Positions 12,795 to 54,934 of a stretch of DNA of 64,000 nucleotides are shown here, piece after piece. Within the stretch, counting starts at the first letter, position 1. Each line of letters begins with the position of its first letter. The stretch is from Candidatus Heimdallarchaeota archaeon (GTDB lineage: Archaea > Asgardarchaeota > Heimdallarchaeia > Heimdallarchaeales > Heimdallarchaeaceae), in the NCBI GenBank assembly GCA_030668875.1, contig DAOVER010000005.1, forward strand, positions 26,597-90,596, in the 5' to 3' direction. The notes beneath the pieces were generated by a model. It did not search any database. It was not told where the DNA came from and worked only from the letters and a program-made list of their open reading frames with translations. A program made the translations under genes and the position numbers.

Positions 12795-14111
12795 GTGTAT
12801 AGTATGAGCAAAAATAAGCAGGAGAAGACGGTTGAGCCTGAAATAAAGGAAGTTGAGGAACAATATGAAGAGCTCCTTATAGAAGAAGCTAGAAAAGAGA
12901 TGGTTGAATCAGATGAGATAGTCTCAATTTTAGAAATAAAGGATGTTCCTGGTTTAGGCAAAAAAAGTCAAGATGTCTTAGCTGATAATAATATATTAAC
13001 GATTGATCAATTGATGACAACAAGATTAATTGAATTGCAAGCAATGGGATTACAACGTGCTACGATCAAAAAAGCCCGTGCTGTAATCTCCAAATCAGTT
13101 GCAAAATACAAATATTTTAAGGAAGAATTGGGACTCGAGGATCTTCCAGGAGTTGGAAAATCAACTGCGGACATGTTACGCGAAAAGGGTTTGAATGTCT
13201 ACCTTCTTGAAACAACTCCTATTCGTGAACTAGAAGATAAGTATGGAATTACAGAAACTGCTTCAAAGAAGTATAAGGAAGGGTTAAGCGAGTTAAGAGG
13301 AGGGATTGACTTTGTTAGTGCTTTTGAAATAATGGAAAAACAAACGGACGCTCCCTCTTTCACCTATGGAATAAAGGCTTTAGATGCATTAACTACCATT
13401 GAGGAACTTGATGTATCGGGTGTGAGGCTAGGAGAAACATTAGAACTTTTTGGCCCGTTTAGATCTGGCAAATCACAGATCTGCCATCAACTTTGTGTAA
13501 CAGTACAATTGCCAACTGAATTAGGGGGGGTAGGAAAGAAAGCAGTTTTTATTGATACTGAAGGAACTTTCTCACCTAGTAGAATTAAGGCTGTTCATGC
13601 TAGATTACAGAGTGAACTCGGTTGGGAAAAGAGCTTTGAAGATGTCCTTAAGGACATAACTTATGCAAGAGCTTACAACTCAGACCATCAAATGAGTTTA
13701 GTAGAAAGACTACTTGAATTGTTCTACAATCATAAGGATGAGTATGGTTTTGTAGCTGTAGATTCAGCAACCGCACATTTCAGAGCTGAATATGCAGGCA
13801 GAGGAACGTTAGCTGAAAGACAACAAACAATCAATCATCATTTAGGCATATTAGGTAGACTAGCTGACACATACACTGTTGCTGTTGCAATAACGAATCA
13901 AGTTCAGTCAAATCCTGCAGCCTTCTTCGGTGATCCGACACAAGCTATTGGCGGGAATATTTTAGGTCATTGGGCAGTAACAAGATTTTATTTGAGAAAA
14001 TCAAAAGGTGAAAAACGAATAATAAGAATATATGATTCGCCGTATTTACCTGAATCAGAAGCAGTTTTCGCAATTACTCCAGAAGGCTGCATCGATGTAG
14101 AAGGCGGTTAA
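12795..14111 (+). CDS. radA: RadA/Rad51-family recombinase with an extended N-terminus carrying two HhH-type segments
   Basis: Walker A GPFRSGKSQ, Walker B FVAVDSATAHFRAEY, and ITNQV...GGNILGH. The N-terminus has DVPGLGKKSQDVL and DLPGVGKSTADML. An ATG at 12801 is an alternative start. Confidence 0.9.
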   Translation: MYSMSKNKQEKTVEPEIKEVEEQYEELLIEEARKEMVESDEIVSILEIKDVPGLGKKSQDVLADNNILTIDQLMTTRLIELQAMGLQRATIKKARAVISKSVAKYKYFKEELGLEDLPGVGKSTADMLREKGLNVYLLETTPIRELEDKYGITETASKKYKEGLSELRGGIDFVSAFEIMEKQTDAPSFTYGIKALDALTTIEELDVSGVRLGETLELFGPFRSGKSQICHQLCVTVQLPTELGGVGKKAVFIDTEGTFSPSRIKAVHARLQSELGWEKSFEDVLKDITYARAYNSDHQMSLVERLLELFYNHKDEYGFVAVDSATAHFRAEYAGRGTLAERQQTINHHLGILGRLADTYTVAVAITNQVQSNPAAFFGDPTQAIGGNILGHWAVTRFYLRKSKGEKRIIRIYDSPYLPESEAVFAITPEGCIDVEGG

Positions 14112-23943: not shown

Positions 23944-25221
23944 ATGGGTGGAATTAAGAGAAAAAGAAAGAAAATCGAAACGCCAGGTCATCCTTATGAT
24001 AAAGCTCGCTTAGAGAGAGAACTCCCTCTTGTTGGTGCTTATGGTTTAAGAAACAAGCGCGAATTATGGAAAGCAAGAACTATTCTTTCTACAGCTAGAC
24101 AACAAGCTAGAGGCTTACTAGCTCTTGACCCTGAAATTAGAAAAGTTAGAGAACAAGAACTTCTTTCAAGACTCTCTCGTTTTGGTATGTTATCTCAGAA
24201 TAGCAATCTTGACTCTGTTTTAGCACTTGAAATTAAAGTCATTCTTGAAAGAAGACTTCAAACAATTGTATTCAGAAAAGGTTTAGCATCCTCTCCGTAC
24301 CAAGCTCGTCAATTTATTGCTCACAGACACATAGCTATTGGAACTGGTGTTGCAACATCTCCTAGCAGATTAATCACAATAGCTGAAGAGGAGATAGTCA
24401 ACTACGCTCCCCGTTCTCCACTGAATGATCAAACTCATCCTTCGCGACCTCAAGCACCTCCTGCTTTTGATGCGGGGCAACCTGAGAAAAGGGAAGAACA
24501 TAAGCGTGAAAGAACTGGAAGAGATGGCAAACCTAGAAGGAAAGAAGCTCCAAAGAAGGAAACTAAACCAGGAGTTAAACCAAAACCAGAGGTAAAGAAG
24601 GAAACTCCAAAGAAAGAAGCTCCAAAGAAGGAAACTAAACCAGGAGTTAAACCAAAACCAGAGGTAAAGAAGGAAACTCCAAAGAAAGAAGTTCCAAAGA
24701 AGGAAACTCCAAAACCAGAGGTAAAGAAGGAAACTCCAAAGAAAGAAGTTCCAAAGAAGGAAACTCCAAAACCAGAGGTAAAGAAGGAAACTCCAAAACC
24801 AGAGGTAAAAAAGGAAACTCCAAAACCAGAGGTTAAAACAAAGCCAGAAGTGAAGAAAGAGGTTCCAAAGAAGGAAACTAAACCAGAAGTTAAAACAAAG
24901 CCAGAGGTAAAGAAGGAAACTCCAAAACCAGAGGTAAAGAAGGAAACTCCAAAACCAGAGGTTAAAACAAAGCCAGAAGTAAAGAAAGAAGCTCCAAAGA
25001 AGGAAACTAAAATCTCTGACCTTGACATCTCTTTGATAAAAGGTATTGGTGCAAAAACTGCCATGCTTCTCAAAGAAAATGGCTTTGATACTGTTGGTAA
25101 GATTGCTAAGGCAACTACTGAAGAACTTTCCAAAGTTCCAGGTGTTGGTCCCGCTACTGCATCAGCTATGAATAGTGAAGCTAAAGTTTTGCTTTCAAAG
25201 AAAGCTGAGGATAAGAAGTAG
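23944..25221 (+). CDS. rps4: 30S ribosomal protein uS4 with a C-terminal extension of about 260 aa (K/P/E tandem repeats plus an HhH module)
   Basis: The N-terminal ~165 aa is a normal archaeal S4 (PGHPYDKARLERE...S4 RNA-binding domain). Then come KPEVKKETPKKE repeats and ISDLDISLIKGIGAKTAMLLKENGFDTVGKIAKATTEELSKVPGVGPATA. Confidence 0.9.
   Translation: MGGIKRKRKKIETPGHPYDKARLERELPLVGAYGLRNKRELWKARTILSTARQQARGLLALDPEIRKVREQELLSRLSRFGMLSQNSNLDSVLALEIKVILERRLQTIVFRKGLASSPYQARQFIAHRHIAIGTGVATSPSRLITIAEEEIVNYAPRSPLNDQTHPSRPQAPPAFDAGQPEKREEHKRERTGRDGKPRRKEAPKKETKPGVKPKPEVKKETPKKEAPKKETKPGVKPKPEVKKETPKKEVPKKETPKPEVKKETPKKEVPKKETPKPEVKKETPKPEVKKETPKPEVKTKPEVKKEVPKKETKPEVKTKPEVKKETPKPEVKKETPKPEVKTKPEVKKEAPKKETKISDLDISLIKGIGAKTAMLLKENGFDTVGKIAKATTEELSKVPGVGPATASAMNSEAKVLLSKKAEDKK
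24544..25008 (+). repeat. in-frame coding tandem repeats inside uS4 (72-nt unit x2, 57-nt unit x2, then shorter KPEVKKETP variants)
   Basis: gaagctccaaagaaggaaactaaaccaggagttaaaccaaaaccagaggtaaagaaggaaactccaaagaaa recurs with a 72-nt period at 24544 and 24616. Related units continue to about 25008. Confidence 0.9.
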
Positions 25222-25228
25222 GTGAAGT

Positions 25229-25714
25229 ATGATGAGTAAAAAAGAAGAAACTAAAGTTAAATCTGAAGAAAAGTCTGAAGAAAAAACTGAAACAACAGAA
25301 TCTTCGCGACCTGAGCGACCAAGAAGAAGAGAATCTAAACACGGGATAGCACATATCTTTTCAAGCTATAATGACACAATCATCCACATAACAGACATCT
25401 CTGGAGCTGAAACATTCAGCCGTAAAAGTGGAGGAATGTTTGTGAAAGCAGACAGAAATGAATCAAGTCCTTATGCAGCAATGAAAGCAGCAAACGCAGC
25501 AGCACAAGAATCGCAAGCAAAAGGAATATATCAACTGTATGTAAGATATAGGGCACCAGGAGGACATAAAAATAGAACTCCAGGACCAGGAACACAAGCA
25601 GCATTACGTGCACTGAAAAGATCAGGAATGAGAATAATAAGACTAGAAGATGTAACTCCATTGCCACACAATGGTTGTAGGAGAAAGGGTGGCCGTAGAG
25701 GCCGTAGAATGTAG
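25229..25714 (+). CDS. rps11: 30S ribosomal protein uS11 with a K/E-rich N-terminal extension
   Basis: [18 protein letters not shown] ... [23 protein letters not shown]. Confidence 0.9.
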
Positions 25715-25805: not shown

Positions 25806-26252
25806 ATGACAATTACTAAAGCTAAAATATTTGCATGTGAAATCTGTGGGAAAGAGTTTGGAAGAAAGGACAATCTAGGAAGGCACAAAATAACAGTTCA
25901 TTCCAAATCACAGAAGCATAAATGTCCAAAGTGCAATTTTTCTTCAACAAGAAAAGATAGTCTTGATAAACATATCAAAGAAGTTCACAGTGAAGTAAAG
26001 CAATATTCTTGTAAAATGTGTGGAGAAAGGTTCACACAAAAAGGGAGTATGGAAAGGCATATAGATTCCTCTCATAAAGACGTTTTTTCTTTTGCATGTC
26101 CCAAATGCAATTCAATTTTCTCAAGAAAAGATAGCTTGTTACGACATATCAGAAGTGTGCACGAAGGTATAAGACCTCACAAATGTTCAGAATGTGGTAA
26201 AAGCTTTCAACATAAACATCATCTGAAGGATCACCTAATTTTAGGTCATTGA
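25806..26252 (+). CDS. C2H2 zinc-finger protein, 5 tandem fingers
   Basis: There are five C-x2-C-x12-H-x4-H units, for example CEICGKEFGRKDNLGRHKITVH and CSECGKSFQHKHHLKDHLILGH. The period is about 28-29 aa with linkers such as EGIRPHKC. Confidence 0.9.
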   Translation: MTITKAKIFACEICGKEFGRKDNLGRHKITVHSKSQKHKCPKCNFSSTRKDSLDKHIKEVHSEVKQYSCKMCGERFTQKGSMERHIDSSHKDVFSFACPKCNSIFSRKDSLLRHIRSVHEGIRPHKCSECGKSFQHKHHLKDHLILGH

Positions 26253-26261
26253 GGGAAGGAA

Positions 26262-27425
26262 ATGAGTAACTCGGAAAAAATAATAATGCGACCAACTTGT
26301 GAAATCTGCGGTCTTAGTTTTTCAAGAAAAGACAGTTTGTATAGACACAAACGATCAGTTCATTCAGAGTCAAAGAAATATAGCTGTACAGAATGCAATC
26401 TCACATTTTCTCGTAAAGATACACTGGATCGTCACATCAATGATGTCCACAAACAAATAAGGAAATATATTTGTACCATATGTGACGAGAAGTTCAAACA
26501 AGCGGGTGCTCTAAAAAGACATATCCAAACAATGCATGAGAAGAATATTAGTTATGAATGTCCAAACTGTGATGCAGCATTCCCGCGTAAAGACAACCTA
26601 GACAGACACATAAATGCCGTTCATTTAAACCTCCGACCCCACATTTGCCAGGAATGTGGTGCAGCTTTCAAACTACCTGATCACCTTAAGCAGCACATTA
26701 TTTCCATACATACTGACCGGCGTCAATATGTTTGTGATGAATGTGGTTTTGCTTTCAAACTTCGTCAACATCTAAATGATCATGTCAAAGTTGTTCACCT
26801 AGGTCTTCGTTCTTATGCTTGTGAGGAATGTGATTCTTCTTTTGCTCATGCTCGTGCTCTTAAGCAACACATTATTTCTGTTCATACCGATGAACTTCCT
26901 TATGTTTGCGAGAAATGTAAGAGAGGATTTGCAGATCCTAGTCATCTATATAGGCATGAAAAAGCTGAAGCTTGTTGGTTTACAACTACTACTGCCTACA
27001 AATGGGAAGAGCTTTGTAAAGAGATAGCTGAGATTCTTTTAGAGGAAAAGAATTGGGAGTGGAAACCTACTATAGAAACACCTGAGTTGGTTGAACAGAC
27101 TAGAGTGCAGCCTGAGATTGTTATCTATAATGATGATGGTACGATGGATTTTATCGATGCTAAGAGGTCTACTTATGCTATTTTCAAGGAGAAGGATCTG
27201 GTAGTTTATCCTAAGGTGGCTAGGAGGGTGGAGTTCTGGTGCCTCTACGGTAAAACCAAGGGGATATTTGAAGAGGAGGAAGGGGTGGAAGCGAAATCAA
27301 GTGAAGAAATCATTGGCAAACTAGAAAAGGAAGATTCGCATGATGGACAGAGAGTAAGGAATCTAATAATGAAGATTAGTTTATTGAAAAAGGGAATAAG
27401 ATTTGAAGGACAACAGACACTGTAG
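26262..27425 (+). CDS. C2H2 zinc-finger protein with 8 tandem fingers and a C-terminal domain of about 150 aa carrying a PD-(D/E)XK-like motif
   Basis: Seven C-x2-C-x12-H-x4-H fingers plus a terminal C2HC-like finger (CEKCKRGFADPSHLYRHEKAEAC). The C-terminal region has KWEELCKEIAEILLEE ... VQPEIVIYNDDGTMDFIDAKRS. Confidence 0.85.
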   Translation: MSNSEKIIMRPTCEICGLSFSRKDSLYRHKRSVHSESKKYSCTECNLTFSRKDTLDRHINDVHKQIRKYICTICDEKFKQAGALKRHIQTMHEKNISYECPNCDAAFPRKDNLDRHINAVHLNLRPHICQECGAAFKLPDHLKQHIISIHTDRRQYVCDECGFAFKLRQHLNDHVKVVHLGLRSYACEECDSSFAHARALKQHIISVHTDELPYVCEKCKRGFADPSHLYRHEKAEACWFTTTTAYKWEELCKEIAEILLEEKNWEWKPTIETPELVEQTRVQPEIVIYNDDGTMDFIDAKRSTYAIFKEKDLVVYPKVARRVEFWCLYGKTKGIFEEEEGVEAKSSEEIIGKLEKEDSHDGQRVRNLIMKISLLKKGIRFEGQQTL

Positions 27426-44240: not shown

Positions 44241-45695
44241 GTGAATTACATGGTTTCAAAGTTCTTGATGCTATTCAAACCGTTTCAACGTTTTACCTTT
44301 GAGGTAAAGAAGCCAGCAAGAAAACCTTCTTTTAAAAGAAAGTTAGCTTGGACCTTCGGAATCCTAGCCCTCTATTTAGCTATGCTAAATATTCCTATTT
44401 TCGGTATACCTGAATCAGGTGGAACCGATCCCTTCTTCGCCATGAGGGCAATATTAGCTTCACAAAGAGGAAGCTTAGCAGAATTAGGTATAGGACCTAT
44501 TGTAACTGCTGGTTTGATTATGCAGTTACTTGTGGGATCACAAATTATCAAAGTTGATTTTACTAATCCTGAAGAACGTGCTCTATACACCGGAACACAA
44601 AAAATACTTGCTATATTGATGACCCTATTCGAAGCTTTAGCATATATTCTTGGTGGAGCTTATGGAGAGTTAGGTTTCCAAGCACAAATGATTGTATTAT
44701 TGCAATTAATTGTTGCAGGTTTTACCATTCTTCTTATGGATGAAGTTATCCAGAAAGGTTATGGACTTGGAAGCGGTATTAGTTTATTCATTGCTGCAAG
44801 TGTTTCATATACTATCTTTGATGGCATGTTCAGTTTAACGCAAGAAAGAATTGGAGGTTTTGATTGGTACAGAGGTTGCGTTCTCGCATTCTTTCAAGGT
44901 ATCTTCAAAGAAAATCCAGACATACTAACACCACTCAGTAGACCTGGTAGAACCCCCGATGTAATTGGTTTACTGGCAACAATAGTTGTTTTTGCAATGG
45001 TTATCTATGTAGACTCTATGAAAATTGAGATACCTGTCCAACACAGCCAATATAAGATGCCAGCCAGATATCCAATAAAATTCTTATATACGTCAAATAT
45101 CCCTGTAATCCTTGTAAGCGCCTTATTTGCAAACATCTACTTCGTTTCAAACCTAATGCACAACTCTTGGAGTGATATAACAACGGGTTATCAAGGATTC
45201 TTGGTCGACTTTTTCGGTAGATGGGATACGATAGAAGGCACGGAACAACTAACTCCAGTTTCGGGGCTAGCAGCTTTTACAACGGCACCGTATGGACCTG
45301 AACAAATTGCGGAGCAACCGTGGCATGCCCTAGTGTATTTACTATTAATGGTTGCACTTTGTGGTATCTTCTCGCGTATTTGGATAGATACGGCTGGGAT
45401 GAGTTCAAAAAATGTTGCGAAACAACTGTTAGATGCAAATATGCAAATACCTGGTTTTAGGCGTAATCCAAGGATTGTAGAAAGATATCTAGAAAGATAC
45501 ATTCCTACAGCAGCCTGGCTCGGAGGTTTCTTTATAGGTGTTCTAGCAGCAGTAGCGGACTTTCTGGGAGCTCTTGGTACGGGTACTGGTATTCTGTTAA
45601 CAACGGGTATTCTCCGTCAGTACTATGAAATCTTCGCTAGTGAACAAATTAGTGAAACTGTTCCAGCTTTAGCTGGAATGTTAGGAATAAAATAA
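44241..45695 (+). CDS. secY: protein translocase subunit SecY/Sec61-alpha (canonical copy)
   Basis: RGSLAELGIGPIVTAGLIMQLL, YPIKFLYTSNIPVIL, the L8/9 loop IPGFRRNPRIVERYLERYIP, and GTGILLTTGI. Confidence 0.9.
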   Translation: MNYMVSKFLMLFKPFQRFTFEVKKPARKPSFKRKLAWTFGILALYLAMLNIPIFGIPESGGTDPFFAMRAILASQRGSLAELGIGPIVTAGLIMQLLVGSQIIKVDFTNPEERALYTGTQKILAILMTLFEALAYILGGAYGELGFQAQMIVLLQLIVAGFTILLMDEVIQKGYGLGSGISLFIAASVSYTIFDGMFSLTQERIGGFDWYRGCVLAFFQGIFKENPDILTPLSRPGRTPDVIGLLATIVVFAMVIYVDSMKIEIPVQHSQYKMPARYPIKFLYTSNIPVILVSALFANIYFVSNLMHNSWSDITTGYQGFLVDFFGRWDTIEGTEQLTPVSGLAAFTTAPYGPEQIAEQPWHALVYLLLMVALCGIFSRIWIDTAGMSSKNVAKQLLDANMQIPGFRRNPRIVERYLERYIPTAAWLGGFFIGVLAAVADFLGALGTGTGILLTTGILRQYYEIFASEQISETVPALAGMLGIK

Positions 45696-49559: not shown

Positions 49560-50105
49560 TTAATTTTCTGCTTTGTCAGAATCTGCTAATTCATCGAGAT
49601 CAAGATCCTCATCTAATTCGAAATCGTCTTCGAAATCGTCACCAATATCATCTTCAAGTAATTCGTATTCTTCCTCAAGCGATGTTGCGTCAAGCATATC
49701 ACCAATTTCATCTATAGTTGCAGGTGGGTTCAAAACCTTAAGTCCCAAATCAGCTGCATTGTCTAGAATCATTTGCCTCTTACGAGCACCAACGGTGTGC
49801 TTAATCATAACTGCTTCAGTTTCTTTATCTATTTCTTCAAGTTCATAGATATTAGCAACATGAACTACTTGATAACCCGAAGGATGCAGACCTCTGACAG
49901 CTTTTGGTCCCCGGTATCCTATGCTGACCATAGCAGGATAACCTTTGCGTTTTTCTTTCATTTTATTATCAATACCCTTAGGTTTACGCCAGCTTTTTTT
50001 TACTCTCTTGTAACGCCAGCTTTCTTGCCTAACAAAGTTAGGTCTACGAGCACTGATTTCTTTACGCTTTTTTAGTAAACGTTTCTTATCGACTGTCATA
50101 GGCAC
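49560..50105 (-). CDS. rpl32e: 50S ribosomal protein eL32 with an acidic C-terminal tail
   Basis: RPNFVRQESWRYKRVKKSWRKPKGIDNKMK...GLHPSGY. The tail is EEEYELLEDDIGDDFEDDFELDEDLDLDELADSD. Confidence 0.9.
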   Translation of the reverse strand: MPMTVDKKRLLKKRKEISARRPNFVRQESWRYKRVKKSWRKPKGIDNKMKEKRKGYPAMVSIGYRGPKAVRGLHPSGYQVVHVANIYELEEIDKETEAVMIKHTVGARKRQMILDNAADLGLKVLNPPATIDEIGDMLDATSLEEEYELLEDDIGDDFEDDFELDEDLDLDELADSDKAEN

Positions 50106-50271: not shown

Positions 50272-51651
50272 ATGGAATCGAAGAAATTGGACTTATTTGA
50301 TTCAATGTCTTCAAGAGTAAGTATCCCATTTAATCTTAAGGTAATTTATACTTCTTTGTTTGCTATTCTTTATCTCATATTTCTAAATATACCCATTTTC
50401 GGCGTGCCTAGTTCAGGAGGAACTGATCCTTTTTTTGCTTTCAGAGTCATTATGGCATCTCAGAGAGGAAGTTTGGCAGAGTTTGGTATTTTTCCGCTTG
50501 TATACGCATCTTTCATTATGCATGTATTGGTGGGGTTAGGAATTTACAAAATGGATTTCACACAAGCAGAGAAGAGAAAGAAGTTTTCGATTATAGTTAC
50601 TATTCTGGGGTTGTTTTTCTCTCTCACATCATCTTTATGTTATGTAATTTTTGGTGCTTATGGAGAGATAAGTGTTGATCAAGGTTTTATAATCATTCCT
50701 CAATTATTGCTTGCTAGTACTCTTATAATAATAATTGACTATTTCATGAGAAAAGGGTACGGATTGAGCTCTGGTGTAAGCTTGTTTATAGTAGTCAGTG
50801 TTTCACGAACTATCTTTGATGGTATGTTCAGTTTAAGTCAATTAAGAGTTGGAGGTTTTGATTGGTACAGAGGTTGTATTCTCGCATTCATTCAAGGTAT
50901 CTTTAAAGAAGACCCAGATATACTGACACCACTCATCAGACCGGGTTTAACACCTGATTTTCTGGGATTCATTTTAGCAATTATAGTGTTTGGAATGACG
51001 ATATTCTTTGTATCCTTTACCATAAAGAGACCATTCTATCAGAGAGATCAAATTACAAAATCATCGATGACAGCTCAATCATTATACAACTATTCTAATT
51101 CCGTAGTAATAACCAGTTCATTTTTTGCAAATATTTCCTTCGTTTCAAATATGATGTTTAATACATGGAGCTCATTTTCAACGGGATTTAGAAGTTTGTT
51201 GGTTAGTTTCTTCGGTAGATGGGAGACGATAGAAGGCACGAATCAGCTAGCTCCAGTTTCGGGGCTAGCGGCTTTTACAACCCCTCCATATGGGGTTGAA
51301 CAAATTACACAACATCCGTGGAATACTTCGGTGTATTTTCTATTTATGATTGTATATAGTATCCTTATGTCTAGATTATTAGTAAAAACATCAGGAAAGG
51401 AAAATGTAAGTATTCTAAAAGGAACAGACATATTTAATCAAGAAAAATATGAAGTCACTAATTTCCCTTTAGCATTATTAGCTGGTTTTTTCATGGGGTT
51501 TTTAGCAGGGTTTTTTAACATCATTTCTCCATTGGGAACAGGAGTAGGTATTCTAATAACAACGTGCATACTGAAACAACTCTTGGACATCATTTCCCAT
51601 GAAAAATCCAAATGGAATGAATCAAGAAAAAATACGGAAATTAATAAATAA
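50272..51651 (+). CDS. divergent SecY/Sec61-alpha paralog
   Basis: Shares RGSLAEFGIFPLV, GGFDWYRGCILAFIQGIFKEDPDILTPL and FFGRWETIEGTNQLAPVSGLAAFTTPPYG with the copy at 44241. It has degraded TM7 (AQSLYNYSNSVVIT) and L8/9 regions. Confidence 0.8.
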   Translation: MESKKLDLFDSMSSRVSIPFNLKVIYTSLFAILYLIFLNIPIFGVPSSGGTDPFFAFRVIMASQRGSLAEFGIFPLVYASFIMHVLVGLGIYKMDFTQAEKRKKFSIIVTILGLFFSLTSSLCYVIFGAYGEISVDQGFIIIPQLLLASTLIIIIDYFMRKGYGLSSGVSLFIVVSVSRTIFDGMFSLSQLRVGGFDWYRGCILAFIQGIFKEDPDILTPLIRPGLTPDFLGFILAIIVFGMTIFFVSFTIKRPFYQRDQITKSSMTAQSLYNYSNSVVITSSFFANISFVSNMMFNTWSSFSTGFRSLLVSFFGRWETIEGTNQLAPVSGLAAFTTPPYGVEQITQHPWNTSVYFLFMIVYSILMSRLLVKTSGKENVSILKGTDIFNQEKYEVTNFPLALLAGFFMGFLAGFFNIISPLGTGVGILITTCILKQLLDIISHEKSKWNESRKNTEINK

Positions 51652-52839: not shown

Positions 52840-53406
52840 CTAAATTATTTGTACCTCAAACTCTGTTCTAACAAATTCCATAGTTTCAGATGGGGTTAGT
52901 AAGTGCTTCTTTGGTATTTTCTTTCGTTTGTGTTGCCTGTACTTTAACCTATAACCTGGTCTTTCTAACTTAACAACGACATTGAAACCGATTGTTCCTA
53001 GCATTGGATCAAAAGGAGCATTTTCAATATCAACGTGCTCAGTTATACCAAAAGCAAAATTGCCTTGTTGGTCAAAGGAAGATTCCTTCACTTGATAATC
53101 ATGAGCATAAAGAAGACGCTTCAACATTATCTTGGCTTCTTCTCCACGTAATGTTACTAAAGCTGCGATAGACTCTCCTTCTCTTATACCAAAACCTCTT
53201 TCAGATCTTTTAGCTACACGTTCAACTGGTTCGCATTTGGTAATTTGACGAAGAATCTCTTTTGTTCTTTCAAATCTAGGACCTGATTCACCAACACAAC
53301 TATTGATGATTAAAGCCTTCAATCGAGGTTTTCGCATTGGATTCTTTTTCCATTCATCAGCAAATTGCAAAGGAATTGGTTCTTGCTCGATTACTTCGTC
53401 ACTCAT
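52840..53406 (-). CDS. rpl5: 50S ribosomal protein uL5
   Basis: NPMRKPRLKALIINSCVGESG ... GFGIREGE. Confidence 0.9.
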   Translation of the reverse strand: MSDEVIEQEPIPLQFADEWKKNPMRKPRLKALIINSCVGESGPRFERTKEILRQITKCEPVERVAKRSERGFGIREGESIAALVTLRGEEAKIMLKRLLYAHDYQVKESSFDQQGNFAFGITEHVDIENAPFDPMLGTIGFNVVVKLERPGYRLKYRQHKRKKIPKKHLLTPSETMEFVRTEFEVQII

Positions 53407-54161
53407 TTCTTATCACCTTCGTTACCAGCAATTGTTACACTTGGAGTATCATTGCCCACAATGAAAATATATCTGAACAGTGTAACGAAAATCTCACCAT
53501 CAGGTGTCTTTATGGTCGCTGTTTTAGTTTTTTGTGTTCCATGAGAACTGATTTCTTCAATAGTTCCATGCTTACCCATCCACCTTCCACTAGTTACAAT
53601 ACCATAATTACCTATTTTCAATTCGTATTTTTCTAAAATCTTTTGATCTGGTAAAGATATCTTAACTGTGTCATGTGTATGGTAAGGAACACTATCGCTT
53701 TCAGATTTCTGTAAGATGATGTTTCTACCATCATGGAGATTTAGTTGTGTTAGACCTCCTTTGAGTGTAGTCTTATTCTTAATTTGGCAGAGTTTAACTT
53801 TTGTTTCATCTTCCTTAATTGGAATTGTCCTTAGACCTTTCTTCGGAGTATATACTAATCTATAATGTTCTTTTATTTTTGGGAAGGAAATAACATCCAT
53901 GAAACCTAGTGGGTATTTTCTGTTTGTTTTTATTTTTCCATCTATGAGAACATTTCTTTCAACCAATATACGTTTAACTTCACTCATGTTTCGAGCTACT
54001 CGGAACATATCACGGAGCATAATGGCCATTGGAATACATTCATGTGCAGCATGAGGACCAGGAGAGGGTTTAACCGTATAAGTATTAGCTTTCTTTTCAA
54101 TAGGTATATGTTTTGAAACAACGAATCTCTTCAGATGTCGTTTTCCACCGCCTTTTGTCAT
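53403..54161 (-). CDS. rps4e: 30S ribosomal protein eS4
   Basis: GGKRHLKRFVVSKHIPIEKK...YTVKPSPGPH, followed by a KOW region. Confidence 0.9.
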   Translation of the reverse strand: MTKGGGKRHLKRFVVSKHIPIEKKANTYTVKPSPGPHAAHECIPMAIMLRDMFRVARNMSEVKRILVERNVLIDGKIKTNRKYPLGFMDVISFPKIKEHYRLVYTPKKGLRTIPIKEDETKVKLCQIKNKTTLKGGLTQLNLHDGRNIILQKSESDSVPYHTHDTVKISLPDQKILEKYELKIGNYGIVTSGRWMGKHGTIEEISSHGTQKTKTATIKTPDGEIFVTLFRYIFIVGNDTPSVTIAGNEGDKK

Positions 54162-54934
54162 ACTAATTCCTCCTTTTTATCTGTTTTCTCAGAAAGCAAA
54201 TCTTCTGCGTTAGCACTCATAGTTTTTGCTGTACCAGGACCAATACCAGGTACTTTTGAAAGCTCTTCTGAGGTTGCTTTGGCAATCTTATCAACAGTAT
54301 CAAAACCATTTTCTTTGAGAAGCATTGCGGTTTTAGCACCTATGCCCTTAATCATAGATATGTCAAGGTCAGAAACTTTGGTCTCCTCCTTGGGAGCTGC
54401 TTCTACAACATCTTTAGGAGCATCAGTTTCGTCAAGATCTTCGAATTCTTCAAAAATATCCTCTTCAAGATCTTCATCTTCTTCTTCGACATCAGATTCT
54501 TCTAAAGGCTCATCGAATTCATCAAATAGATCTTCAGTTAATTCTTCTTCAGTAAGTTCTTTTCTAGAACGTCTCTTAATGATCTCCCTTCTCTTTTTAT
54601 CACGTAAATTCAGAGAAGTAATTATGATGTTGCTTGGATGAACAGGAAAACTAGAGACTGTACCATCAGCTTTTTCCTTACTATATCCTTCGATATGAAC
54701 TGAATATTTCTGAGGTAAAACACGGATTACTTTACCTTTAATCTCTTGGTCTTCAGATTTAGCTCTGAAAACCAGTACTTTGTCATCTTTATGTACAGGA
54801 AGACGTCGAATACCATATTTATTTCTCAATTCACGTGAGAGAAGAGCAGTCATTTGACGATTGCGAAGATGTAAAGGAGCAGTATAATACCTCTTACGTT
54901 GTTTACGAGGTTGTTTTGTTTTTGTATATCTCAT
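54158..54934 (-). CDS. rpl24: 50S ribosomal protein uL24 with a C-terminal extension of about 135 aa (acidic linker plus an HhH module)
   Basis: The N-terminal ~120 aa is L24 (KOW: HKDDKVLVFRAKSEDQEIKGKVIRV). Then come the EEELTEDLFDEFDE... linker and VSDLDISMIKGIGAKTAMLLKENGFDTVDKIAKATSEELSKVPGIGPGTA. Confidence 0.9.
   Translation of the reverse strand: MRYTKTKQPRKQRKRYYTAPLHLRNRQMTALLSRELRNKYGIRRLPVHKDDKVLVFRAKSEDQEIKGKVIRVLPQKYSVHIEGYSKEKADGTVSSFPVHPSNIIITSLNLRDKKRREIIKRRSRKELTEEELTEDLFDEFDEPLEESDVEEEDEDLEEDIFEEFEDLDETDAPKDVVEAAPKEETKVSDLDISMIKGIGAKTAMLLKENGFDTVDKIAKATSEELSKVPGIGPGTAKTMSANAEDLLSEKTDKKEELV

What the first reader, a model, noticed from the sequence alone, without database searches (positions are those of the whole stretch)
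54158..54562. uL24 with an acidic linker plus the same HhH module as uS4: evidence of recent domain shuffling between ribosomal protein genes 29 kb apart
uL24 here is 258 aa against a usual ~120. The linker is strongly acidic (EEELTEDLFDEFDEPLEESDVEEEDEDLEEDIFEEFEDLDETD), whereas the uS4 linker is strongly basic. Both end in the near-identical HhH block. The nucleotide-level similarity of the block, on opposite strands, indicates a recent copy or ongoing gene conversion rather than ancient convergence.
Basis: seen in the sequence. Interest (0 to 1): 0.55.

Follow-up and report, generated by a model that had tools for sequence, protein, structure and literature searches.

The report
Shared DNA-binding head on two ribosomal proteins
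In this Heimdall-group (Asgard) archaeon, ribosomal proteins uL24 and uS4 each carry the same small helix-hairpin-helix nucleic-acid-binding domain on a long floppy tether; the copy was passed from uS4 to uL24 long ago, not recently, and related lineages occasionally re-homogenise the two copies by gene conversion.

Summary
uL24 (54158-54934, minus strand, 258 aa) consists of a normal uL24 core, a 52-aa acidic disordered linker, and an 80-aa segment homologous to the C-terminus of uS4 (23944-25221, plus strand, 425 aa). That segment is 73% identical at the protein level (E=3e-35) and about 80% at the nucleotide level. It is a globular RadA/Rad51-N-terminal-like (HhH)2 domain, not low complexity.

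The similarity does come from a DNA-level copy, from uS4 to uL24. It is not recent in this genome:
- Paralog dS is 0.80, against 0.05-0.44 between orthologues of sister species.
- dN/dS is 0.15.
- Both copies form separate orthologous groups within the window's clade.
- uL24-HhH is present in about 25 protein clusters, down to 57% identity.

Across three Heimdall clades, each uL24 module groups with the uS4 module of its own clade (uL24-module monophyly in 0/300 bootstraps). One relative (MAG QM1B.68) shows a 77-nt perfect conversion tract (p=0.0004). DNA exchange between the two genes is therefore recurrent in the family.

The function is inferred only: a tethered, non-specific nucleic-acid-binding head. 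The closest precedent is the N-terminal HhH domain of haloarchaeal eL32. I found no paper describing these two fusions.

The parts
54158..54934 (-). uL24 gene (258 aa), in the operon order uS17-uL14-uL24-eS4-uL5
   Evidence: ORF. TIGR01080 scores 124.8 bits. Neighbouring genes. The identical protein occurs on 4 contigs from independent samples.
54569..54934 (-). uL24 core (aa 1-122, KOW fold)
   Evidence: Pfam Ribosomal_L26 at aa 6-122. AF2 pLDDT is 83-94 over aa 21-130.
54413..54568 (-). Acidic disordered linker (aa 123-174), ancestral to Heimdall uL24
   Evidence: Net charge about -26 to -29. AF2 pLDDT is below 50 for aa 141-188. The same acidic tail, with a conserved EED.FEEFEDLDE motif, is present in HhH-less relatives. 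It is not a DNA tandem repeat.
54173..54412 (-). Segment homologous to the uS4 C-terminus (aa 175-254): the last uS4-type linker unit (APKEETK) plus the (HhH)2 domain
   Evidence: BLASTP gives 73% identity over 80 aa, E=3e-35. Nucleotide alignments. Coordinates checked.
54218..54364 (-). HHH_5 domain of uL24 (aa 191-239), with two canonical GIG hairpins
   Evidence: Pfam HHH_5 scores 51.2 bits. The AF2 module superposes on the RadA N-terminal domain (1xu4) at 0.7 A rmsd over 56 residues.
54158..54172 (-). Native uL24 3' end (EELV*), which carries the GGAGG Shine-Dalgarno-like motif and the overlapping ATGA start of eS4
   Evidence: The sequence reads AAGGAGGAATTAGTATGA. The eS4 ORF is 53403..54161. 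Similar KEE-type C-ends occur in HhH-less uL24.
23944..25221 (+). uS4 gene (425 aa), in the order uS13-uS4-uS11; the inferred donor of the module
   Evidence: ORF. NF003139 scores 213.5 bits. Neighbours.
24457..24975 (+). Basic K/P/E/V repeat linker of uS4 (nested tandem repeats, 27-nt unit)
   Evidence: TRF finds 72-nt copies 98% identical and 27-nt units in 11.7 copies. Net charge is about +29/+30. Linker length varies from 73 to 194 aa among relatives.
24976..25215 (+). uS4 segment homologous to the uL24 tail (aa 345-424)
25036..25182 (+). HHH_5 domain of uS4 (aa 365-413)
   Evidence: Pfam HHH_5 scores 50.0 bits.

Best explanation
What it is. This is a RadA/Rad51-N-terminal-like (HhH)2 domain of about 60 aa, attached by intrinsically disordered tethers to the C-termini of two ribosomal proteins of a Heimdallarchaeaceae-type Asgard archaeon. 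The uS4 fusion is the older and more widespread one. The uL24 copy derives from it by an intragenomic DNA transfer that carried along the last unit of the uS4 linker. The transferred piece was inserted at the end of uL24's pre-existing acidic tail, just upstream of the few 3' codons that hold the ribosome-binding site and start codon of the next gene, eS4.

Timing. In the window's lineage this happened before the radiation of its genus-level clade. Since then both copies have evolved separately under purifying selection.

Family-wide pattern. Across the family the two genes keep exchanging this segment. In each of three clades the uL24 module is most similar to that clade's uS4 module, and one lineage shows a fresh gene-conversion tract. 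Whether this reflects one old fusion plus repeated conversion or several independent re-acquisitions cannot be settled here.

How it probably works (inferred, not shown). Both HhH hairpins keep the canonical G-h-G motif. The heads are therefore most likely non-sequence-specific nucleic-acid backbone binders. One hangs from the small subunit near the mRNA entry (uS4) and one from the large subunit near the peptide exit (uL24). They would keep ribosomes in contact with DNA, mRNA or structured RNA. I put about 0.35 on nucleic-acid tethering as the function. The stated confidence refers to the structural and evolutionary account.
For: Domain identity:
- Pfam and NCBIfam assignments.
- PDB profile search: best hits are the RadA/Rad51 N-terminal domain (1pzn, 1e-8) and haloarchaeal eL32 (9l94_Q, 3e-8; 1jj2_X).
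- AF2 plus Foldseek: rmsd 0.7 A over 56 residues to M. voltae RadA, 38% identity.

Disordered tether: pLDDT is below 50 for aa 141-188 of uL24.

Conservation and selection:
- uL24-HhH is found in about 25 clusters down to 57% identity.
- dN/dS is 0.10-0.21 in six same-genome pairs.

Direction uS4 to uL24:
- All 28 archaeal module loci found in GTDB representative genomes are in uS4 (22) or uL24 (6), and none is a stand-alone gene.
- Genomes with uS4-HhH but HhH-less uL24 exist, for example P0086/P0047 on one 701-kb contig.
- The uL24 copies carry uS4-type linker units, expanded to PKKETKVV repeats in P0008 and P0010.

Age:
- Paralog dS is 0.80, against orthologue dS of 0.05-0.44.
- In clade A, uL24 modules are monophyletic at 91% and uS4 modules at 87%.
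- The same 28.8-kb spacing and opposite-strand arrangement occurs in MAG 7H_bin003.

Recurrent exchange:
- uL24 modules are monophyletic in 0/300 bootstraps, while per-clade groups get 63%, 91% and 94%.
- Quartet sites support clade grouping over host grouping by 7-11 vs 0 (aa) and 13-28 vs 0-4 (nt).
- Homology extends into clade-specific linker sequence.
- QM1B.68 has a 77-nt perfect tract, p=0.0004.

Insertion upstream of the eS4 start; KEE-type C-ends are shared with HhH-less uL24.
Against: - No experimental or structural evidence bears on what the head binds. The module's net charge is about neutral (+1 / -1), which is not typical of a strong nucleic-acid binder. HhH2 domains can also be protein-protein modules (NusA AR domains and the RNAP alpha-CTD appear among the PDB hits).
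- Trees are NJ on only 60 aa. Clade A (uL24 and uS4 modules together) has only 63% bootstrap support.
- The single-origin versus multiple-origin question is unresolved.
- Most data are from MAGs, so same-genome assignment of separate contigs (QM1B.68, YT1 bins) relies on binning.
- The length of the uS4 repeat linker may be mis-assembled.
Confidence: 0.7

Rival explanations
1. One reading: the uL24 module is a recent copy of the uS4 module in this genome, or is currently being homogenised with it by gene conversion.
For: Nucleotide identity is about 80% over 218 nt. Gene conversion does occur between these two genes in a related lineage.
Against: - Paralog pS is 0.49 and dS 0.80, near the saturation level seen between clades (pS 0.52-0.76). 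It is 2-10 times the orthologue dS within the clade.
- The two copies are reciprocally monophyletic in clade A.
- The window pair has no significant tract (best run is 14 nt, uncorrected p about 0.02).
- The same architecture is fixed in many relatives.
Confidence: 0.07
2. One ancient uS4-to-uL24 transfer in the ancestor of clades A, B and C, followed by concerted evolution (episodic gene conversion between the inverted copies) and several losses of the module from uL24.
For: - Conversion is directly seen in QM1B.68. Clade B modules from the two hosts are intermixed: clade B uL24 modules are monophyletic in only 6% of bootstraps.
- The insertion point is similar in all clades, after the FEEFE(D/E)L(D/E)E motif and before the KEE-type C-end.
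- P0034 looks like a loss: it has the same C-end (EEVSS) with the module replaced by PTAKK repeats.
Against: It requires many independent losses. HhH-less uL24 with 80-82% core identity to the window (P0024, P0025, P0027, P0036) are closer to it than the HhH-bearing clade B and C proteins (76-79%). Lineages with uS4-HhH but no uL24-HhH separate clade A from clades B and C in the module tree.
Confidence: 0.45
3. Three or more independent acquisitions of the resident uS4 module by uL24, one in each clade, with no common fused ancestor.
For: - HhH-positive uL24 is patchily distributed on the core tree.
- Each uL24 module groups with its own clade's uS4 module and shares clade-specific linker sequence upstream.
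Against: The same rare event would have to hit the same protein at about the same position three times. Demonstrated gene conversion can produce the same tree without it.
Confidence: 0.4
4. Functional rival: the heads are protein-protein interaction modules. They recruit one common partner to both subunits, or pair with each other, with the acidic and basic linkers attracting each other. This would link subunits or neighbouring ribosomes rather than bind nucleic acid.
For: - (HhH)2 domains serve as protein-binding modules in NusA AR1/AR2 and the RNAP alpha-CTD, both among the hits.
- The module is near-neutral in charge.
- The linkers have opposite net charge (+29 / -29 in the window).
- Keeping the two heads alike (concerted evolution) would suit a shared partner.
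Against: - Both hairpins keep the canonical GIG motifs that contact phosphate backbones.
- The charge match is a coincidence of this genome: uS4 linker charge ranges from +3 to +30 in relatives, while uL24 stays at about -22 to -31.
- Most genomes with uS4-HhH lack uL24-HhH, so head-to-head pairing cannot be the general role.
Confidence: 0.25
5. Artefact: the fusion or the similarity results from chimeric assembly or binning of metagenomic contigs.
For: Assemblies often break or gap inside the uS4 repeat linker: many truncated or 'partial' calls, N-gaps in L015 and L024, and one obvious chimera, P0085.
Against: - Both genes are intact on one contiguous window and again on one contig of 7H_bin003.
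- The identical uL24 protein occurs on 4 contigs from different runs.
- The architecture recurs in dozens of independent assemblies, with divergence patterns typical of real genes (dN/dS 0.1-0.2).
Confidence: 0.02

Closest known systems
Haloarchaeal ribosomal protein eL32 (L32e) with an N-terminal HhH domain (e.g. Haloarcula marismortui 50S, PDB 1JJ2 chain X; 9L94 chain Q)
   Same: A HHH_5-type (HhH)2 domain is fused to a ribosomal protein. It is the second-best PDB sequence hit to the module profile (3e-8 and 2e-6). NCBIfam PRK12766 (L32e) also hits the module. A relative with two HhH units on eL32 (P0188) is among the closest modules in the global search.
   Different: The host protein differs (eL32, not uL24 or uS4), as do the terminus (N, not C) and the lineage (Haloarchaea, not Asgard). 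There is no long charged tether of the kind seen here, and no paired copies on both subunits. The window's own eL32 has no HhH; it has an acidic C-tail instead.
RadA/Rad51 N-terminal (HhH)2 domain
   Same: It is the best sequence and structure match: 1pzn at 1e-8, and 1xu4 at rmsd 0.7 A over 56 residues with 38% identity. It has the same five-helix (HhH)2 layout with two G-h-G hairpins. This domain is known to contact DNA (established knowledge, not tested here).
   Different: There is no recombinase ATPase core. The window's own RadA (12795-14111) is only 29% identical to the module, so it is not the recent source.
Other HHH_5 fusions to the archaeal gene-expression machinery (Rpo6-HhH, NusA-KH-HhH)
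   Same: Closely scoring modules in the 1.84-billion-protein search sit on Rpo6 (P0201) and on NusA KH proteins (P0221, P0250). The HhH head is thus a recurrent add-on to transcription and translation proteins.
   Different: The hosts differ. Their modules are not the same sub-family as the uS4/uL24 one. Nothing is known here about tethers or exchange between their genes.
Concerted evolution / ectopic gene conversion between dispersed paralogous segments (e.g. tuf genes, rRNA operons in prokaryotes)
   Same: It shows a paralog tree that follows species clades rather than gene identity, plus an identity tract bounded by diverged flanks.
   Different: Here only a roughly 200-nt accessory module is exchanged, embedded in two otherwise unrelated essential genes. 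Exchange is episodic rather than continuous.

Membership tests
Archaeal/eukaryotic uL24 (TIGR01080 rplX_A_E; Pfam PF16906) | Sequence match above the curated cutoff over the whole model | tested here: met
   TIGR01080 scores 124.8 bits (cutoff 47.65) over aa 7-122, model positions 2-115 of 116. PF16906 scores 103.4 bits.
Archaeal/eukaryotic uL24 (TIGR01080 rplX_A_E; Pfam PF16906) | Conserved operon position uS17-uL14-uL24-eS4-uL5 | tested here: met
   Neighbouring ORFs and Pfam calls.
Archaeal uS4 (NF003139 / TIGR01018) | Sequence match above the curated cutoff; position uS13-uS4-uS11 | tested here: met
   NF003139 scores 213.5 bits (cutoff 138) and TIGR01018 scores 187.3 bits. uS13 and uS11 flank the gene.
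HHH_5 / (HhH)2 domain (PF14520) | Match above the gathering score in both proteins | tested here: met
   51.2 and 50.0 bits, against a cutoff of 27.
HHH_5 / (HhH)2 domain (PF14520) | Two helix-hairpin-helix motifs with G-h-G hairpins joined by a connector helix | tested here: met
   GIGAKTA and PGIGPGTA / PGVGPATA are invariant or nearly so across 40 modules. The AF2 model has helices at 25-33, 39-44, 47-50 and 58-81 and superposes on the RadA N-terminal domain at 0.7 A.
HHH_5 / (HhH)2 domain (PF14520) | Non-sequence-specific nucleic-acid binding | not testable with these tools
   Requires EMSA or a structure. Only inferred from motif conservation.
RadA/Rad51 recombinase | RecA-type ATPase core following the N-terminal HhH domain | tested here: not met
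   Only the N-terminal part of the RadA models matches (TIGR02236 positions 2-57 of 311, 34 bits against a cutoff of 361).
Haloarchaeal-type eL32-HhH fusion | HhH domain on the N-terminus of an eL32 core | tested here: not met
   The hosts here are uL24 and uS4, and the HhH is C-terminal. The window's eL32 has no HhH. It is the same kind of fusion but not a member.
Ectopic gene conversion between the two modules | Significant identity tract between paralogs flanked by diverged sequence | tested here: not met
   For the window pair: maximum run of 9 polymorphic sites (14 nt), p about 0.02 uncorrected, and dS 0.80. It is met in the relative QM1B.68: 77 nt, p=0.0004.
Ectopic gene conversion between the two modules | Paralogs cluster by lineage rather than by host gene | tested here: met
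   Module tree and quartet counts across clades A, B and C. Independent re-acquisition gives the same pattern, so this feature alone is not decisive.

The most novel reading that the evidence does not exclude
The two fusions may form one functional system. Identical, selection-maintained HhH heads would sit on an acidic tether at the large-subunit exit side and on a long basic PEVK-like tether at the small-subunit mRNA-entry side. Together they would attach Heimdall ribosomes to a common nucleic acid or partner, for example the transcribed DNA or RNA polymerase (a physical transcription-translation coupling device), or bridge neighbouring ribosomes. Gene conversion would then be favoured because both heads must keep the same specificity.
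Probability: 0.1. Interest if true: 0.8.

Novelty: new variant of a known kind. Interest (0 to 1): 0.45.

Why it matters
Heimdallarchaeia are among the closest known archaeal relatives of eukaryotes, and eukaryotic ribosomal proteins are characterised by added tails and extensions. Here an accessory domain is seen being added to, moved between, homogenised between and lost from two essential ribosomal protein genes. It shows how ribosomal proteins accrete modules: the insertion preserved the translational coupling signals of the operon.

If the heads bind DNA or mRNA, they would be a lineage-specific way of anchoring ribosomes. That is relevant to how transcription and translation are coupled in Asgard archaea.

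In practical terms, these are real, selected domains, yet the genes carrying them are annotated simply as L24 and S4. The uS4 repeat linker is also a frequent cause of assembly breaks and truncated gene calls.

Tried and rejected
- **Third or stand-alone copy.** tblastn and blastn of the window found none; the only other hit is the distant RadA N-terminal domain. A module-profile search of 5.8 billion proteins returned short 'stand-alone' hits. All proved to be fragments at contig ends, gene calls after N-gaps, or internal-Met calls of uS4 or uL24 tails. One (P0085) is a likely chimera of a bacterial outer-membrane protein with a uS4 tail.
- **Charge-matched linkers** (+29 / -29). Rejected as a designed feature, because uS4 linker charge ranges from +3 to +30 in relatives.
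- **Origin from the resident RadA.** Rejected: 29% identity.
- **RNA elements.** Rfam found nothing in the window.
- **Literature.** Six searches and two papers read gave no description of uL24-HhH or uS4-HhH. I also found no accessible paper discussing the eL32 HhH domain.
- **Internal Met.** An internal Met before the uL24 module (SMIKG) was considered as a separate start for a free HhH protein. Rejected: there is no suitably spaced SD, and the Met is absent in clades B and C.
Full report
**1.
The flagged interval, 54158-54562, is the 3' half of a 258-aa ORF on the minus strand (54158..54934).
- Residues 6-122 are a standard archaeal/eukaryotic uL24 (PF16906 103 bits; TIGR01080 124.8 bits against a cutoff of 47.65).
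- The gene sits in the canonical order uS17-uL14-uL24-eS4-uL5.
- A 52-aa acidic stretch follows, then a HHH_5 domain at residues 191-239 (51.2 bits, cutoff 27).

About 28.9 kb away on the plus strand lies a 425-aa uS4 (23944..25221). It has the archaeal uS4 body (NF003139 213.5 bits), a K/P/E/V-rich repeat linker of about 175-190 aa, and another HHH_5 domain at residues 365-413 (50.0 bits).

The two tails align without gaps over 80 aa at 73% identity (E=3e-35 with composition correction). At the DNA level they are 79.8% identical over 218 nt (E=1.5e-52; alignment). Net linker charges are -29 (uL24, 63 aa) and +29 (uS4, 187 aa).

The similarity is not low complexity. AlphaFold models give pLDDT 83-89 over the module, both alone and in full-length uL24. 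The acidic linker (aa 141-188) is below 50, meaning disordered. No third copy exists in the window.

**2. Organism and context.**
Homologues are named Heimdallarchaeaceae / Heimdallarchaeota (Asgard). The window is about 35% GC. The identical uL24 protein occurs on four contigs from independent sequencing runs. It is therefore not an assembly accident.

**3. What the module is.**
A profile of the module finds its best solved relatives in three groups:
- the N-terminal domain of RadA/Rad51 (1pzn, 1e-8);
- the N-terminal HhH domain of haloarchaeal ribosomal protein eL32 (9l94_Q at 3e-8; H. marismortui 1jj2_X at 2e-6);
- PolX and NusA AR domains.

The AF2 model superposes on the M. voltae RadA N-terminal domain at 0.7 A over 56 residues, with 38% identity. 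Both hairpins keep the G-h-G signature (GIGAKTA, PGIGPGTA), which is invariant across about 40 modules. The window's own RadA is only 29% identical to the module and is not the recent source.

An exhaustive search of 1.84 billion representative proteins shows similar HHH_5 heads fused to eL32, Rpo6 and NusA-KH proteins elsewhere. An HhH head on the expression machinery is therefore a known theme. uL24 and uS4 as hosts are not described in any paper I could find.

**4. Distribution and direction of transfer.**
*uL24.* HhH-bearing uL24 occurs in about 25 protein clusters down to 57% overall identity. About 48 other Heimdall uL24 clusters are 170-193 aa with the acidic tail only. The acidic tail is therefore ancestral and the HhH head is the addition.

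*Genome scan.* A scan of one genome per GTDB species with the module profile found 28 archaeal loci, all in Heimdall-type MAGs. Of these, 22 are uS4 C-termini and 6 are uL24 C-termini; none is a stand-alone gene. Close relatives have exactly two loci each (7H_bin4, 7H_bin003). In 7H_bin003 both lie on one contig, on opposite strands, about 28.8 kb apart, as in the window.

*uS4.* uS4-HhH occurs in genomes whose uL24 lacks the head, for example P0086 and P0047 on one 701-kb contig. It reaches down to about 68% core identity. Deeper Heimdall uS4 and those of other Asgard lineages are 177-240 aa without it, and some carry a long basic tail but no head.

*Linker evidence.* The uL24 copies carry uS4-type linker units ahead of the domain (APKEETK in the window). 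These are expanded to 5-8 PKKETKVV repeats in P0008 and P0010. Taken together, uS4 is the donor and uL24 the recipient.

**5. The copy is not recent in this genome.**
Nei-Gojobori estimates over the 60-codon core give pS 0.49, dS 0.80, dN 0.12 and dN/dS 0.15 for the window pair. Five other same-genome pairs give dS 0.41-1.43 and dN/dS 0.10-0.21. Orthologous modules among the window's near relatives differ by dS 0.05-0.44. Between clades, pS is 0.52-0.76, which is saturation.

In a neighbour-joining tree of 40 modules, the clade A uL24 modules and clade A uS4 modules are separate groups (91% and 87% bootstrap). A GENECONV-style permutation test finds no convincing tract in the window pair. The last exchange in this lineage therefore predates the radiation of its clade, and both copies are kept by purifying selection. 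The 80% nucleotide identity is what a conserved protein gives in an AT-rich, codon-biased genome.

**6. Exchange between the two genes is recurrent in the family.**
- All uL24 modules together are never monophyletic (0/300 bootstraps). Modules group by species clade regardless of host: A 63%, B 91%, C 94%.
- Quartet counts give 7-11 amino-acid sites and 13-28 nucleotide sites for clade grouping, against 0 and 0-4 for host grouping.
- In each clade the homology runs 8-25 aa upstream of the domain into linker sequence that differs between clades. An example from clade C is PKEKKPP.KP.EE.SKV...DLSQ. This argues for DNA transfer rather than protein-level convergence.
- In MAG QM1B.68 the two modules share a 77-nt perfect tract (92 nt with one mismatch), flanked on both sides by diverged sequence, and orthologues differ at many of these sites (p=0.0004). 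That is a fresh gene-conversion tract.
- On the uL24 core tree, HhH-positive proteins fall in three clusters interleaved with HhH-less ones. Several HhH-less proteins (80-82% core identity to the window) are closer to it than the HhH-positive clade B and C proteins (76-79%). P0034 looks like a loss.

I cannot decide between one old fusion with conversions and losses, and several re-acquisitions. I rate them about equal.

**7. How the insertion fits the operon.**
The homology with uS4 ends five codons before the uL24 stop. The remaining sequence, AAG GAG GAA TTA GTA TGA, contains a GGAGG Shine-Dalgarno-like motif and the ATGA stop/start overlap with eS4. HhH-less uL24 proteins end in similar KEE/EEE-type residues. 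The module was thus inserted upstream of the native 3' end, preserving translational coupling to eS4.

**8. Likely mechanism (inference).**
From established ribosome structures, which I did not test here, uS4 lies at the mRNA entry on the small-subunit solvent side. The uL24 C-terminus lies beside the polypeptide exit on the large subunit. Disordered tethers of about 60 aa (acidic) and 73-194 aa (basic, PEVK-like, repeat-length variable) would let the heads sweep tens of nanometres.

With canonical hairpins and a RadA-N-terminal-like fold, the most likely activity is non-specific binding of nucleic-acid backbones: DNA, mRNA or structured RNA such as expansion segments. I give this about 0.35. 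A protein-interaction role gets about 0.25. The near-neutral module charge and the NusA-AR and alpha-CTD precedents keep that second option open. The exact +29 / -29 charge match is a coincidence of this genome.

**9. Verdict.**
This is a new variant of a known kind, namely HhH heads fused to ribosomal and expression-machinery proteins, with haloarchaeal eL32 as the closest precedent. It comes with an unusually clear record of module transfer and concerted evolution between two unrelated essential genes. Interest is moderate.

Noticed in passing
window 49560-50105 (-): eL32 is 181 aa. After the Ribosomal_L32e domain (aa 22-126) it carries an acidic/aromatic C-terminal tail of about 50 aa (EEEYELLEDDIGDDFEDDFELDEDLDLDELADSDKAEN). 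The tail resembles the acidic linker of uL24, so acidic tails on large-subunit proteins seem to be a lineage trait.
   Followed up: partly
window 12795-14111 (+): RadA is 438 aa, against a usual length of about 320. It has two tandem HhH-type N-terminal domains (about aa 40-100 and 112-170) ahead of the Rad51 core (aa 202-434). It is only 29% identical to the ribosomal module.
   Followed up: partly
window 50272-51651 (+) and 44241-45695 (+): There are two SecY-like genes. One is a canonical SecY (484 aa, PF00344). The other is a 459-aa ORF that hits only the Sec61 plug domain. It lies on the opposite strand inside the ribosomal protein operon, between uL6 and eL32.
   Followed up: no
window 25806-26252 and 26262-27425 (+): Two multi-C2H2 zinc-finger proteins (148 and 387 aa, eukaryote-like zf-C2H2 arrays) lie directly downstream of uS13-uS4-uS11, where archaea usually have rpoD.
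   Followed up: no
window 24540-25011 (+): The uS4 linker is a nested tandem-repeat array: a 27-nt unit in 11.7 copies and 72-nt copies that are 98% identical. Its length varies from 73 to 194 aa among relatives, and it is where many public assemblies break or contain N-gaps. This produces 'partial' uS4 calls and spurious short HhH genes.
   Followed up: yes
window 25229-25714 (+): uS11 (161 aa) has a K/E/S-rich N-terminal extension of about 38 aa before the S11 domain.
   Followed up: no
window 54158-54175 (-): The last codons of uL24 (AAGGAGGAATTAGTATGA) contain a GGAGG Shine-Dalgarno-like motif and an ATGA stop/start overlap with eS4. This probably explains the conserved KEE-type C-termini of Heimdall uL24.
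   Followed up: partly
P0085 (public protein, 249 aa, ENA contig of 153,843 bp): A bacterial outer-membrane-efflux-like N-terminus is joined to a Heimdall uS4 HhH tail, exactly at the linker/module boundary. It is most likely a chimeric metagenome assembly.
   Followed up: partly
P0313, P0319 (public Heimdall uS4, about 300 aa): These uS4 variants have a long basic K/P/A-rich tail but no HhH head, and end in ...SSKKEESK. The tether can therefore exist without the head.
   Followed up: no
P0201, P0221, P0250, P0188 (public proteins): Closely scoring HHH_5 heads are also fused to RNA polymerase subunit Rpo6, to NusA-type KH proteins and (doubled) to eL32 in other organisms. I did not determine which organisms.
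   Followed up: partly
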